Virus record (IMG/VR): IMGVR_UViG_2737471854_000004
Span: 1-49,583 of that record
Source: a virus
Lineage: Duplodnaviria; Heunggongvirae; Uroviricota; Caudoviricetes
DNA length: 49,583 bases
Direction: 5' to 3' (one strand)
Shown here: piece after piece, positions 36,703 through 39,318 of the stretch
Layout of the letters: each line of letters begins with the position of its first letter
Numbering within the stretch: position 1 is the stretch's first letter
Notes under the pieces: generated by a model
The model's database searches: none
Told to the model about the DNA's origin: nothing
Seen by the model: the letters and a program-made list of their open reading frames with translations, nothing else
Position numbers and translations under genes: made by a program

Positions 36703-37048
36703 TCAGATATGAGATATCTGGAGTTGTCTTTTTTGGCCTATGATACGGTCTTTGTTCCACTGTTACATGTTCATAATCAAATCTCCTGCAATGCTGGAGA
36801 TTTGAGTACGGTTGTCCCTTATGAGCGAGTATTGGACATTGAGTTACTTGTATCAGGGGTGGTCAAAATATTGGCACTTAGCCATAAAGGTATTTACATC
36901 AATGATTTATGATCTTTCCTTAGCAAGATTGCTACTTTTTTGTGAAGTATGTTCATGTCAATAGTAGGTAATTAAATTTACAAAATCGCGAATTAATGGT
37001 TATATATCCCCTATGGCTTGTTTTTTTAATACGAGGAATCAAACGGAT

Positions 37049-38488
37049 ATGGATAATAATATTCTATTTATTTCATCAATTGAGCGGTTTAATGATTTCG
37101 AAGAGGTTGTTAGACGCTTTTTACAGCGAATGTTTAATGCAGATGCTTATATTACAAATGGCCCTTATGACGGAGGCAAGGACGTCGTTTACTCAGTAAG
37201 AGGTCGTGAAATAAGAGAGGTAATACAGGTATCTATTATAAAAAAAGGTTTAGAAGATAAACTTGAAGAAGACTTAATCAAAACAGATGATTTAATTAAA
37301 AAATATAATTACCCTCCTGTATTGAATTTTTTTTGGAGCCACAAAATATCTGAAAGCAAGCTTGAAGTTTTAAAAAGCAATGCCAGAAAAAATTATGGGA
37401 TAACCCTCGAGTTTTATGACGCAAATAGAATATCTCAAAAAATCACCAATGATTATCCGGAGATATTAACCTTTCTTCTTGAGGAAGTTCACAATTATCA
37501 ATCCTCTAAAAAGGATGAGTTGGACATAAAAGAAATAGCATTTTACGAATATCTGGTGTTAAGTAAAGATGCTGCCAATTTAAAGAATGTAATTATTGAT
37601 TCATACATAGTTTCATTACTTACAGGTCAAGGGAAGTCAGAGCATGATTTAATCAATGAAACCCAAATTCTTGGGGTACACAATGAAACTCTTAAAAATA
37701 GATTGTATCTTTTAAAGCGAGATAATCGAATTATCCTTGATGGAGATTTATACAGTCTGTCTGAGGTTGAAAGTAAGAGAATCAGGAATCTTGAGTTAAA
37801 AGAAATAGCCAAAAGGAATGAGGTTTTAACAATAATTGGTAATGCGACCTCAAAATACTTTAGTGAAAATATATCCACCGAGGTTCTTGACCTAATTAAG
37901 GAGGCTTATGCTGAGTCGGTCAATCTACAGCTTAATGAATTAAACTTCGAATCCCCAAGAAATCAAATTGTTAAAGGAATTATTAAACAACTGGAAAAAT
38001 TGATAACTGAAAAAGGAAAAATAAACAACTCATTGTCTTCAAAATTAGCTAATGAGCTTGTTGAGTTATCTGGGAGAAATGAATATCTTTCAGACTATTG
38101 CTCATCAAGGCTATGCATAACTCTATTAAATCAAAAGAAACTTGAAAGATATATTGACAATAAAACGTTTTTTTTATACCTAGATGCCCCAGTATTGATT
38201 CCATATCTTGTTGCATTAAGATACGATAAAATTTCTAACAGTGAAAAATCGATAAGCACTGTTAAAACGTTAAAGAAAATAGTATTTAACCTTAAAAACA
38301 GACACATTCGTGTAACCCAAGAACATCTTGAAGAAACAGTACGACATTTATTAAATGGAATGAAAATTAGTTCTTTTGCCAATGATGAATTAGTTAGGAA
38401 GATAGGTAATTCTAAAAACGTATTTTTTAATACATATATAAATATTAAAAAAGCAAACCTAGTAGTTACAATTTCGAAAATTTTTTAG
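37049..38488 (+). CDS. Mrr/PD-(D/E)xK-like N-terminal nuclease-fold protein, 5' part of a frameshifted gene
   Basis: ORF 37013..38488; start moved to MDNNILF (purine-rich RBS). Motif FEEVVRRFLQRM...GPYDGGKDVVYS...EVIQVSIIKK; remainder predicted helical; AT-rich. Confidence 0.45.
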   Translation: MDNNILFISSIERFNDFEEVVRRFLQRMFNADAYITNGPYDGGKDVVYSVRGREIREVIQVSIIKKGLEDKLEEDLIKTDDLIKKYNYPPVLNFFWSHKISESKLEVLKSNARKNYGITLEFYDANRISQKITNDYPEILTFLLEEVHNYQSSKKDELDIKEIAFYEYLVLSKDAANLKNVIIDSYIVSLLTGQGKSEHDLINETQILGVHNETLKNRLYLLKRDNRIILDGDLYSLSEVESKRIRNLELKEIAKRNEVLTIIGNATSKYFSENISTEVLDLIKEAYAESVNLQLNELNFESPRNQIVKGIIKQLEKLITEKGKINNSLSSKLANELVELSGRNEYLSDYCSSRLCITLLNQKKLERYIDNKTFFLYLDAPVLIPYLVALRYDKISNSEKSISTVKTLKKIVFNLKNRHIRVTQEHLEETVRHLLNGMKISSFANDELVRKIGNSKNVFFNTYINIKKANLVVTISKIF

Positions 38489-39318
38489 AAGATTTTATTG
38501 GCTATGAAGATACATCTGGCTCTATCGATGCAAAGTTTTATAAACTAATTCGTTCAGTCTCTCAGTATTTAAATCTAAATAGAATTGAAGTTATTTCAAC
38601 CTCAGTTTATCAGGAAGATAGAATCATTGAGGAAGTTGCCAGGAAGTTTTCTAGGCAAATATCTGGTCCAAAAAAAAGAAATCCACGAACTATTAATAAT
38701 GATATTTATGCTGCATTAACCTTATCTGATGACAGCATACACTGCGATGAAAAGGGAGTCGGTCAAATCCCTATGCTAATTACATGGGATGCAACTCAGC
38801 ACACACTCAGGAATATAGTAAGACAAAAAGATAAATATAAAGAATGGTTGGTTTACACTCCCCAAAGAGCAATTGAAAGACTTTCAATGTTAGAAATGAA
38901 AATTGAGAGCTCCGCAATTAAAGATGGTGTTTTAGCAATTATTGATGAGGATTATTTCTTCAAGGAAAACGATTCAAATTTAATCGATACTCTGGCATTG
39001 CTAGTGAAAGATGATTCCCCTGACGCCGGCGCATTAACAACTTTGATAAATAAACTATCGCAAAGGGTAACCGAGGAGTCTTTAGATTCTCAAGATATTG
39101 AAAAAGAAGCATTCAATACTTTAAACGAGATTTTAGTATTTACTTACACTGAGTTTAAAGATAATTTTAGCCAGGTAAAAATTGTTTTCAGTGATGAAAA
39201 ATATACCGACTCAATCTTTGAGATACTAACCTCAACACTTAAGCGACCTTTCGATGATTCTTCTAGAATAGAGTATAAAAATAAAATAGACGAAATAATT
39301 TCAGTTCACTTTGGTTGA
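38449..39318 (+). CDS. 3' part of the same gene in the -1 frame
   Basis: This frame is open from 38449, 324 nt upstream of the annotated Met at 38773, and overlaps the upstream ORF by 40 nt across A6/T6 homopolymers. Confidence 0.4.
   Translation, partial: KSKPSSYNFENFLEDFIGYEDTSGSIDAKFYKLIRSVSQYLNLNRIEVISTSVYQEDRIIEEVARKFSRQISGPKKRNPRTINNDIYAALTLSDDSIHCDEKGVGQIPMLITWDATQHTLRNIVRQKDKYKEWLVYTPQRAIERLSMLEMKIESSAIKDGVLAIIDEDYFFKENDSNLIDTLALLVKDDSPDAGALTTLINKLSQRVTEESLDSQDIEKEAFNTLNEILVFTYTEFKDNFSQVKIVFSDEKYTDSIFEILTSTLKRPFDDSSRIEYKNKIDEIISVHFG

What the first reader, a model, noticed from the sequence alone, without database searches (positions are those of the whole stretch)
37013..39318. Large Mrr-like nuclease-fold gene split by a -1 frameshift at a homopolymer tract
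Seen in sequence: ORF 37013..38488 ends at TAG 38486-38488, but the -1 frame is open from 38449 and runs without a stop into the annotated 181-aa ORF (38773..39318). The stretch 38489-38772 translates cleanly (EDFIGYEDTSGSIDAKFYKLIRSV...GQIPMLITWDATQ). The 40-nt overlap contains A6 (38446-38451) and T6 (38481-38486) runs. The fused product would be ~770 aa with an N-terminal Mrr-like motif (FEEVVRRFLQRM..GPYDGGKDVVYS..EVIQVSIIKK). It is the only sizeable + strand gene in a - strand region. Inference: a single large defence-type nuclease inactivated by a homopolymer indel, or a sequencing artefact; less likely a programmed frameshift.
Basis: partly seen in the sequence, partly recalled or inferred. 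Interest (0 to 1): 0.7.

Follow-up and report, generated by a model that had tools for sequence, protein, structure and literature searches.

The report
Frameshifted prophage two-nuclease gene
One 756-codon prophage gene for an uncharacterised protein with two nuclease-type domains is broken here by loss of a single A from a run of seven, and other E. coli lineages carry the same gene broken at three other A/T runs.

Summary
Window 37049..39318 (+) is one gene. Three complete E. coli genomes carry the same 2,451 bp with a single difference, A7 where the window has A6 (38447-38452), and annotate an intact 756-aa protein, WP_047674170.1. All full-length relatives are about 750-780 aa, and the junction region aligns continuously. 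The window's product ends after K468 plus 11 aberrant residues.

The protein matches no model in Pfam, NCBIfam, PADLOC or PHROGs. The family's N-terminal consensus just passes the Pfam Mrr_cat threshold, although the canonical QxK lysine is S/T. A winged helix follows. Residues 366-620 form a PIN-like domain: D379, E429, D552 and D581 are invariant or nearly so, and the one significant fold hit is a phage "PIN like domain" protein. The frameshift removes D552 and D581.

The gene is 31% GC cargo in a Rac-like prophage, beside a HEPN gene that carries a nonsense mutation. Other E. coli lineages have lost one base at T8 (gene position 279, on several haplotypes), T8 (1120) and A8 (1623).

Verdict: an ordinary, recent frameshift pseudogene, or less likely a homopolymer miscall. 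The gene family itself is undescribed and is a candidate single-protein defence nuclease. Programmed frameshifting is not supported.

The parts
37049..38488 (+). 5' fragment of the gene: 479-aa ORF, native residues 1-468 plus 11 aberrant residues (ANLVVTISKIF) and TAG
   Evidence: The exact product is WP_040088916.1/KIG62924.1.
38447..38452 (+). A6 tract, the site of the 1-nt deletion. It is A7 in the intact allele and covers codons K467-K468 and the first base of S469.
   Evidence: This is the only difference from NZ_CP123009.1, NZ_CP123008.1 and NZ_CP121294.1 over 2,451 bp.
38453..39318 (+). 3' fragment of the gene, in the -1 frame relative to the 5' fragment: residues 469-756 plus the stop. 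It contains the spuriously separate 181-aa ORF 38773..39318.
   Evidence: There is no substitution relative to the intact allele.
37049..37498 (+). N-terminal Mrr_cat-like (PD-(D/E)xK-type) domain, aa 1-150. Conserved residues are D41-G-G-x-D45, Q60-x-S/T62, K71, D75 and K78.
   Evidence: Conservation in 110 sequences. The family consensus hits Pfam PF04471 at 22.3 bits against a cutoff of 21. There are sub-threshold hits in 5 of 30 and 6 of 63 members. The predicted element order is alpha-beta-beta-beta-alpha-beta.
37520..37768 (+). Winged-helix domain, about aa 158-240, followed by a helical linker to about aa 365 (window 37769-38143)
   Evidence: AF2 model. Foldseek gives PadR, YodB and MotA hits at probability 0.8-1.0 and TM 0.57-0.64 for the small targets, but with non-significant E-values. 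Weak winged-helix Pfam hits appear.
38144..38908 (+). PIN-like nuclease domain, aa 366-620, interrupted by the frameshift after aa 468. D379 and E429 lie upstream of the lesion; D552 and D581 lie downstream and are lost from the product.
   Evidence: E429, D552 and D581 are invariant and D379 at least 90% conserved in 110 sequences; all four are invariant in 63. The domain model has pLDDT 89.6 and pTM 0.88. The BFVD top hit is 'PIN like domain', E 6.6e-4, probability 1.0.
38909..39315 (+). C-terminal helical domain, aa 621-756, modelled with lower confidence
   Evidence: pLDDT about 50-80.
37327..37334 (+). T8 tract (gene positions 279-286), intact here. It is T7 in other E. coli assemblies, giving the 599-aa call.
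   Evidence: L031-L036, at least 3 haplotype backgrounds.
38168..38175 (+). T8 tract (gene positions 1120-1127), intact here. It is T7 in other lineages, giving 377-aa products that end ...TFFYT*.
   Evidence: 20 contigs read; L018-L025.
38670..38677 (+). A8 tract (intact-gene positions 1623-1630), intact here. It is A7 in another lineage, giving 556- and 568-aa products.
   Evidence: L011, L013, L014, L015, L017, with the linked SNP C1980T.
34201..35946 (-). Neighbouring low-GC cargo gene, the HEPN_LA2681 protein. It is split here into 92-aa and 473-aa ORFs by a W93* nonsense change at 35668. Elsewhere it is intact at 581 aa. It is context, not shown to be a functional partner.
36172..36645 (-). 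Tyrosine recombinase remnant between the two cargo genes
   Evidence: RefSeq annotates it as a pseudogene with an internal stop. Pfam Phage_integrase is recorded.

Best explanation
Window 37049..39318 is a single gene for a 756-aa protein. The modules, in order, are an N-terminal Mrr_cat-like restriction-endonuclease-fold domain, a winged helix with a helical linker, a PIN-like nuclease domain with a long helical insert and the acidic tetrad D379/E429/D552/D581, and a C-terminal helical domain.

In this strain one A has been lost from an A7 tract at codons 467-469. Translation leaves the frame after K468 and stops 11 codons later. The product keeps the Mrr-like and winged-helix parts but loses half of the PIN-like domain, including two of its four catalytic-type acidic residues, and the whole C-terminal domain. 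The gene is therefore a recent loss-of-function pseudogene. This much is shown by the sequence.

The function of the intact protein is inferred. It is most likely a stand-alone, horizontally mobile nuclease carried as prophage cargo that acts in phage or mobile-element conflict, by superinfection exclusion or abortive infection. In this view the PIN-like domain is the conserved catalytic core. The N-terminal nuclease-fold and winged-helix half would supply nucleic-acid binding and/or a second cleavage activity.

Its longest A/T tracts are the weak points at which the gene is repeatedly knocked out in nature.
For: **One gene.**
- Identical DNA with A7 is annotated as one 756-aa CDS in three complete genomes.
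- The exact intact protein is recorded on 68 contigs.
- The search found 36 clusters at 90% identity and 412 representatives at 50% identity; the full-length ones are about 750-780 aa and match end to end.
- The alignment is continuous across the junction.

**Recent lesion.** The split gene has no other difference from the intact allele.

**Not an assembler artefact.** The same A6 is present in GCA_000819185.1 and in an independent Logan assembly of SRR2239615.

**Domains.**
- The family N-terminal consensus hits Mrr_cat over the full length of the model, above the Pfam cutoff.
- D41, G43, D45, Q60, T/S62, K71, D75 and K78 are each conserved in 78-93% of 110 sequences.
- The acidic tetrad is invariant, with the consensus 'LDTxVL' at D379.
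- The domain model is confident and its only significant fold hit is a phage 'PIN like domain' protein. The next hits are XRN, XPG, FEN and G5R-type nucleases, and Exo1, Rrp44-PIN and AF1683 appear among the weak PDB hits.
- The positions of the acidic residues match the published definition of the PIN-like active site (PMC5499597).

**Mobile or conflict context.**
- The gene has 31% GC and lies in a 30-33% GC island within a roughly 50% GC Rac-like prophage, next to a HEPN gene and an integrase remnant.
- It occurs as a solitary insertion between baeR and yegQ in Enterobacter, and at unrelated sites in Pseudomonas, Vibrio and Polaromonas.
- In Castellaniella its neighbours match PADLOC candidates PDC-S65 and PDC-S51 at E about 1e-100.
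- Distant relatives have a different N-terminal module, with sub-threshold DUF4062 hits.

**Recurrent knock-outs.** One-base deletions occur at T8(279), T8(1120) and A8(1623) in other lineages.
Against: **No function has been demonstrated.** There is no hit in PADLOC, Pfam, NCBIfam or PHROGs for the protein itself. Most genomic contexts are housekeeping genes, not defence islands.

**The PIN assignment is not backed by sequence profiles.**
- The Pfam PIN model is reached only at E 0.1, and only by an artificially compacted consensus.
- hhalign against a VapC alignment finds nothing, although that alignment is thin (Neff 1.9).
- Foldseek against the PDB gives no significant hit.

**The Mrr-like domain is atypical.** It lacks the canonical Lys of (D/E/Q)xK; S62 or T62 takes that place. 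It may therefore be catalytically atypical or inactive.

**The lesion could still be a miscall.** I could not inspect reads. The only other single-base indel between the window and strain NWU_3 is also A7 against A6, which is compatible with a homopolymer-calling bias.
Confidence: 0.7

Rival explanations
1. Sequencing or consensus error. The strain really has A7 and an intact gene, and the A6 is a homopolymer undercall in the draft assembly GCA_000819185.1.
For: The lesion is a single base in a homopolymer, with no secondary decay of the downstream frame. The only other 1-nt indel between the window and NWU_3 is also A7 against A6, at about window 1600. Only this strain carries the A6 allele (1-2 contigs).
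Against: An independent re-assembly, Logan SRR2239615, gives the identical A6 sequence over 7,440 bp. The 19.3 kb from 30259 to 49583 differ from NWU_3 by only 2 substitutions and this one indel, so the assembly is not riddled with homopolymer errors. One-base deletions in other tracts of this gene are clearly real, because they are inherited with linked SNPs across many samples and assemblers.
Confidence: 0.2
2. Regulated or leaky decoding. Full-length protein is made from the A6 allele by -1 ribosomal slippage of tRNA-Lys on AAA AAA, or by transcriptional slippage, either programmed or as a contingency (phase-variation) switch.
For: A -1 slip on the second AAA codon would read AGC next and regenerate exactly the wild-type sequence ...IKKSKP... 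(read directly from the sequence). Four of the gene's five A/T tracts of 7 or more bases show length variants in E. coli populations, one of them on several haplotypes.
Against: All homologues, including 100%-identical alleles, are in frame at this site. The downstream RNA folds less well than shuffled sequences (z +1.85). Only contractions by one base were seen, never expansions or mixed populations. Tracts of 6-8 bases are short for efficient slippage (my own knowledge, not tested).
Confidence: 0.06
3. Two genuine separate genes, a 479-aa protein and a downstream 181-aa or longer protein.
For: Gene callers annotate them separately in the draft genome.
Against: No homologue ends at the first ORF. 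The downstream ATG lies inside the conserved 'P-M-L-I-T-W-D' strand of the PIN-like domain. Conservation is continuous from residue 460 to 500 (F476, F479 and G485 are invariant). The 284 nt between the stop and the ATG code cleanly in the downstream frame.
Confidence: 0.02

Closest known systems
Mrr-type type IV restriction endonuclease catalytic domain (Pfam PF04471, Mrr_cat; PD-(D/E)xK fold)
   Same: The N-terminal 150 aa share the helix 'F-x-x-x-V', the D-G-G-x-D motif and the Q in the third strand. The family consensus aligns to the whole Pfam model above its threshold. A winged helix is attached, as in E. coli Mrr (my own knowledge).
   Different: The order is reversed, with the nuclease fold before the winged helix. 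The Lys of QxK is replaced by S/T62, and a conserved K71 sits in the next helix. The window protein alone does not reach any Pfam threshold. About 500 further residues include a second nuclease-type domain. Nothing here points to dependence on modified DNA.
PIN-like nuclease superfamily (VapC, FEN/Exo1/XRN, DUF4935-type; Matelska et al. 2017, PMC5499597)
   Same: The predicted fold is alpha/beta/alpha. There is an Asp after strand 1 (LDTxVL), an acidic residue after strand 2, an Asp at the start of the crossover helix and an Asp after strand 4, all invariant. A long helical insert follows strand 2, as described for DUF4935 and FEN-type members. The best fold hit is a phage 'PIN like domain' protein.
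   Different: No Pfam PIN-clan model is matched, and hhalign to VapC gives nothing. There is no antitoxin partner. The domain is embedded in a 756-aa multidomain protein. The substrate, RNA or DNA, is unknown.
Single-protein modular nuclease defence systems (for example Shedu, or the Mrr-nuclease plus beta-propeller protein of Vassallo et al. 2022, PMC9519451)
   Same: It is one large polypeptide that combines a nuclease fold with other modules. It is carried on a prophage or island, has a patchy distribution and low GC, and its N-terminal module is exchanged in distant relatives.
   Different: There is no sequence relationship: PADLOC-DB 2.0 gives no hit. No phenotype is known, and most homologues are not in recognisable defence islands.
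Homopolymer-controlled (phase-variable) restriction-modification genes of Haemophilus, Neisseria and Helicobacter
   Same: Frame-changing length variation in intragenic A/T runs of a nuclease-type accessory gene, seen repeatedly in natural populations.
   Different: The tracts are short (7-8 bases). Only contractions by one base were seen, and there is no evidence of reversibility. This mechanism is not established for E. coli prophage genes. The comparison rests on my own knowledge.

Membership tests
Mrr_cat (PF04471) / PD-(D/E)xK nucleases | Match to the Pfam model at or above the gathering score | tested here: inconclusive
   The window protein has no hit at E<=1. Sub-threshold hits occur in 5 of 30 and 6 of 63 family members, best E 0.0077. 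The family consensus of 91 sequences scores 22.3 bits against a cutoff of 21, E 1.5e-4, covering model positions 2-114 of 115.
Mrr_cat (PF04471) / PD-(D/E)xK nucleases | Catalytic signature D ... (D/E/Q)-x-K | tested here: not met
   D41 and D45 are each conserved in 96 of 110 sequences and Q60 in 91 of 110. The position two residues after Q is T or S in 102 of 110, not K. A conserved K71 (93 of 110) lies in the following helix and could substitute, but that is an inference.
Mrr_cat (PF04471) / PD-(D/E)xK nucleases | alpha-beta-beta-beta-alpha-beta core fold | tested here: inconclusive
   The AF2 element order H14-28, E34-37, E44-50, E53-62, H68-86, E91-96 fits. Foldseek-PDB gives only non-significant hits to Mus81, Cap4 and FANCM nuclease folds. 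No domain-only model could be searched.
PIN-like superfamily | Three nearly invariant acidic residues (after S1, at the N-terminus of H4, after S4) plus a fourth, usually after S2 (PMC5499597) | tested here: met
   D379 follows E374-378. E429 follows E418-423. D552 is in the N-terminal part of H546-559. D581 follows E576-578. E429, D552 and D581 are invariant and D379 at least 90% conserved in 110 sequences; all four are invariant in 63.
PIN-like superfamily | PIN-like three-layer alpha/beta/alpha fold | tested here: met
PIN-like superfamily | Sequence-profile match to a curated PIN family | tested here: not met
   No PIN-clan Pfam hit appears among the tabulated results for the 63 members (top 25 of 38 families shown). 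PF01850 is reached only at E 0.1 by a consensus with the insert removed. hhalign against VapC gives a probability of 0.1%.
Known or candidate anti-phage defence systems (PADLOC-DB 2.0) | HMM match to a catalogued system | tested here: not met
   The best hit is PDC-M64B at E 0.11, which is noise.
Known or candidate anti-phage defence systems (PADLOC-DB 2.0) | Recurrent location in defence islands or prophage accessory slots | tested here: inconclusive
   In E. coli the gene sits in a prophage cargo slot beside a HEPN gene. In Castellaniella the neighbours match PDC-S65 and PDC-S51. In Enterobacter, P. aeruginosa, Vibrio, Polaromonas, Pseudomonas and Clostridia the neighbours are housekeeping or unrelated genes.
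Known or candidate anti-phage defence systems (PADLOC-DB 2.0) | Protection against phage when expressed | not testable with these tools
   This needs plaque assays with the intact allele.
Programmed -1 ribosomal frameshift (dnaX type) | The two-frame arrangement is conserved among homologues | tested here: not met
   All homologues and the identical alleles are in one frame.
Programmed -1 ribosomal frameshift (dnaX type) | Stimulatory downstream RNA structure | tested here: not met
   The MFE is -7.4 kcal/mol, weaker than 196 of 200 shuffles, z +1.85.
Phase-variable contingency gene | Intragenic repeat tract whose length differs between strains and switches the frame | tested here: met
   One-base variants occur at T8(279), T8(1120), A7(1399) and A8(1623).
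Phase-variable contingency gene | Reversible, high-frequency ON/OFF switching within a clone | not testable with these tools
   Only fixed contractions by one base were seen in assemblies.

The most novel reading that the evidence does not exclude
The intact 756-aa protein is a previously undescribed single-polypeptide anti-phage system that combines a variant Mrr-type nuclease fold, a winged helix and a PIN-like nuclease. Its A/T tracts would act as mutational switches: the prophage-borne gene is repeatedly turned off, and possibly back on, in E. coli populations because it is costly or toxic.
Probability: 0.12. Interest if true: 0.75.

Novelty: new variant of a known kind. Interest (0 to 1): 0.42.

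Why it matters
The frameshift itself is routine. It matters mainly for annotation: the two 'hypothetical proteins' WP_040088916.1 and the 181-aa ORF are halves of one pseudogene.

The more useful outcome is the description of a compact family. It has about 400 representatives at 50% identity, is found from Proteobacteria to Flavobacterium and Clostridia MAGs, belongs to no curated family, and has a domain architecture I did not find described (Mrr_cat-like, winged helix, PIN-like).

The gene sits in a prophage cargo slot and is knocked out again and again at its homopolymer tracts. If it is a defence or exclusion gene, it would add a two-nuclease single-gene system to the catalogue. It would also give a natural example of how AT-rich acquired immunity genes are lost, or toggled, in E. 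coli.

Tried and rejected
**Searches that gave nothing useful**
- Profile searches of the PDB sequences with the full-length, PIN-domain and N-terminal alignments gave nothing relevant.
- Foldseek-PDB gave no significant hit with either the full-length or the domain model.
- hhalign of the PIN-like domain against a single VapC and against a VapC alignment gave nothing. The VapC alignment was shallow, at 73-98% identity.
- A word-indexed search with the domain alignment returned only family fragments.
- The genome-contig scan found only 5 loci, because the patterns were restrictive.
- A literature search by accession found nothing. The Mrr-containing system of Vassallo et al. is a different protein, with a beta-propeller.

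**Hypotheses considered and rejected**
- The HEPN gene as an obligatory partner: distant homologues lack it.
- Mutual exclusivity of an intact HEPN gene and an intact Mrr-PIN gene: L042 has both intact.
- Programmed frameshifting.
- Two independent genes.
- The promoter and terminator scan gave fewer promoter-like sites than shuffled sequence and no usable terminator.
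Full report
**1. The observation**

One ORF ends at TAG 38486-38488. The -1 frame is open from 38449 to the stop at 39316-39318. There are three small corrections.
- The A run is 38447-38452.
- The start used by RefSeq, and shared by every homologue, is ATG 37049 (MDNNILF...), not 37013.
- The repaired protein is 756 aa.

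A megablast of 36950-39400 against 5,426 complete E. coli genomes found three bovine O155:H21 isolates (NWU_1, NWU_3 and NWU_4). Their sequence is identical apart from one additional A in this run. There the region is annotated as one CDS, WP_047674170.1, a 'hypothetical protein' of 756 aa.

The window's product therefore carries native residues 1-468, then ANLVVTISKIF and a stop. Apart from the missing A, the gene has no difference from the intact allele. The event is very recent, or it is an error.

**2. Source and reality of the lesion**

The exact 479-aa product is WP_040088916.1/KIG62924.1, from draft genome GCA_000819185.1, contig JWZC01000003.1. The same sequence appears in the independent Logan assembly of run SRR2239615, and the two loci are identical over 7,440 bp.

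From 30259 to 49583 the window differs from NWU_3 by two substitutions and this one indel. The assembly is therefore not generally error-ridden.

The only other 1-nt indel in the aligned 29 kb is also A7 against A6, at about window 1600. For that reason a homopolymer miscall cannot be excluded without reads. I put it at about 0.2.

**3. It is one gene, and it belongs to a family**

The word-indexed search found 36 clusters. All full-length members are 752-761 aa (one is 799 aa), from Escherichia, Pectobacterium, Pantoea, Serratia, Klebsiella, Enterobacter, Pseudomonas, Aeromonas, Vibrio and Burkholderia. All are unnamed and have no Pfam domain.

The exhaustive profile search found 412 representatives at 50% identity. 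Most are 750-780 aa and match end to end. The alignment runs through the frameshift site without a break, with F476, F479 and G485 invariant. None of the full-length relatives ends at the first ORF. The ATG of the '181-aa ORF' lies inside the conserved P-M-L-I-T-W-D strand.

**4. What the protein is**

The protein itself hits nothing in Pfam, PADLOC, NCBIfam or PHROGs. AlphaFold2 gave a usable full-length model (pLDDT 78) and a good model of residues 362-626 (pLDDT 89.6, pTM 0.88).

*N-terminal domain (aa 1-150).*
- The element order is alpha-beta-beta-beta-alpha-beta.
- D41-G-G-x-D45, Q60-x-T/S62, K71, D75 and K78 are each conserved in 78-93% of 110 diverse members.
- Mrr_cat is the most recurrent sub-threshold Pfam hit among members.
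- A consensus emitted from 91 N-terminal domains matches the whole Mrr_cat model at 22.3 bits, just above the curated 21-bit cutoff.
- The canonical Lys of QxK is S/T, so this is at best a variant active site.

*Residues about 158-240* form a winged helix. PadR, YodB and MotA are found with Foldseek probability up to 1.0, but with non-significant E-values.

*Residues 366-620* are the family's most conserved part.
- Across 63-110 sequences down to 17% identity, the invariant or near-invariant residues are D379 (consensus LDTxVL), E429, N457, D552, D581 and P605.
- In the model, D379 follows strand 1, E429 follows strand 2, D552 lies at the start of the helix after strand 3, and D581 follows strand 4.
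- This is the arrangement that defines the PIN-like active site. It includes the long helical insert after strand 2 that is seen in some families (PMC5499597).
- Foldseek against predicted viral structures gave one significant hit, a phage protein named 'PIN like domain' (E 6.6e-4, probability 1.0). XRN, XPG, FEN and G5R-type nucleases followed.
- The PDB search gave only weak Exo1, Rrp44-PIN and AF1683 hits.
- Sequence-profile tests failed: Pfam PIN only at E 0.1 for a compacted consensus, and hhalign to VapC null.

I therefore call the domain PIN-like on structural and active-site grounds. It is not a member of any curated PIN family.

Some distant relatives replace the N-terminal module, two of them with sub-threshold DUF4062 hits. 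This suggests that the PIN-like half is the constant core.

**5. Consequence of the frameshift**

The break after residue 468 falls inside the helical insert of the PIN-like domain. D552, D581, the last two strands and the C-terminal helical domain are lost. Four acidic residues are needed for PIN-like nuclease activity (PMC5499597), so the truncated product should lack that activity. This is an inference.

**6. Context**

The window is a Rac-like prophage at ttcA, with intR, xisR, recET, kilR, ydaT, ydaU and ydaV. The gene is the only + strand gene between the nin-like genes and the immunity region.

It lies in a 30-33% GC island (34200-39300) within DNA of about 50% GC. The island also holds a HEPN_LA2681 gene and a decayed tyrosine recombinase. 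In this lineage the HEPN gene carries a W93* nonsense change at 35668; elsewhere it is an intact 581-aa gene. One metagenome scaffold has both genes intact (L042). They are therefore not mutually exclusive, and distant homologues have no HEPN neighbour.

Elsewhere the gene is a solitary insertion.
- In Enterobacter it lies between baeR and yegQ.
- In P. aeruginosa, V. vulnificus, Polaromonas, Pseudomonas and a Clostridia MAG it lies next to unrelated genes.
- In Castellaniella it lies beside two PADLOC candidate systems, PDC-S65 and PDC-S51.

No partner gene is conserved. This pattern fits a self-contained, horizontally mobile accessory gene. A defence role is plausible but unproven.

**7. Recurrent homopolymer knock-outs**

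The gene has five A/T runs of 7 or more bases. Public assemblies contain one-base deletion alleles at four of them.

| Tract (gene position) | Change | Called product | Where seen |
|---|---|---|---|
| T8 (279) | T7 | 599 aa (downstream remainder) | 12 contigs read, on at least three haplotype backgrounds |
| T8 (1120) | T7 | 377 aa | 20 contigs read |
| A7 (1399) | A6 | 479 aa | this window's strain only |
| A8 (1623) | A7 | 556 or 568 aa | several isolates and metagenomes, with a linked SNP |

These alleles are inherited with SNPs and recovered by different assemblers, so they are real. The intact allele is still the commonest, with the exact sequence on 68 contigs.

The simplest reading is repeated loss of a dispensable or costly AT-rich gene at its most mutable sites. 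True phase variation is possible but unsupported, because only contractions were seen.

**8. Programmed frameshifting**

A -1 slip of tRNA-Lys on the second AAA codon would restore the wild-type sequence exactly, so a trace of full-length protein is conceivable. Against this, identical alleles are in frame, no homologue is split, and the downstream RNA is less structured than shuffled controls (z +1.85). I reject a programmed mechanism.

**9. Verdict**

The finding is an ordinary recent frameshift pseudogene (about 0.7), or a homopolymer miscall (about 0.2). The gene family behind it is uncharacterised, with an undescribed Mrr_cat-like / winged-helix / PIN-like architecture. It is a candidate single-protein conflict nuclease. 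Interest is moderate, and it lies in the family and its pattern of repeated inactivation, not in the frameshift.

Noticed in passing
window 34201-35946 (- strand); nonsense at 35668: The neighbouring HEPN_LA2681 gene is also broken in this lineage. A W93* change (TGG to TGA) splits a 581-aa gene into 92-aa and 473-aa ORFs. The same nonsense allele is present in the NWU genomes, and the gene is intact in L018-L024 and L042.
   Followed up: yes
window 36172-36645 (- strand): A decayed tyrosine recombinase lies between the two low-GC cargo genes. RefSeq annotates it as a pseudogene with an internal stop. It may be the remnant of the element that delivered the cargo.
   Followed up: partly
window about 1600: This is a second single-base difference from E. 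coli NWU_3, and it is also A6 in the window against A7. By the NWU_3 annotation it lies between annotated genes. It could hint at homopolymer undercalling in this draft assembly.
   Followed up: partly
window 10452-30259: About 19.8 kb of prophage DNA present in the window is absent from the otherwise near-identical prophage of NWU_3, so NWU_3 carries a deleted version. The content was not examined.
   Followed up: no
L037 (CP123966.1, GCA_029916965.1), locus 1-5782 then onward: A 'complete genome' joins DNA 99.98% identical to window 33849-39629, ending about 100 bp inside ydaV, directly to Firmicute-type genes (bofA, DUF2508, recR, ybaB, dnaX). This looks like a chimeric or contaminated assembly, or otherwise a very recent inter-phylum transfer.
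   Followed up: partly
window 37327-37334 (T8) in L031-L036: The same T8-to-T7 deletion occurs on at least three different SNP and HEPN-allele backgrounds. This implies recurrent independent events or recombination.
   Followed up: partly
window about 6980-8140 (mapped from L002 26991-28151): NWU_3 annotates a 'type I restriction endonuclease' gene among the baseplate and tail genes of the same prophage, and a Hok/Gef toxin gene near window 33440-33600. These are further accessory cargo in this prophage.
   Followed up: no
P0169, P0171, P0182, P0195, P0196, P0204, P0207 (distant family members): These relatives keep the winged-helix, PIN-like and C-terminal core but have a different N-terminal module of about 200 aa. 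Two have sub-threshold DUF4062 hits; the others match nothing in that module (P0182 has one internal HD_assoc hit).
   Followed up: partly
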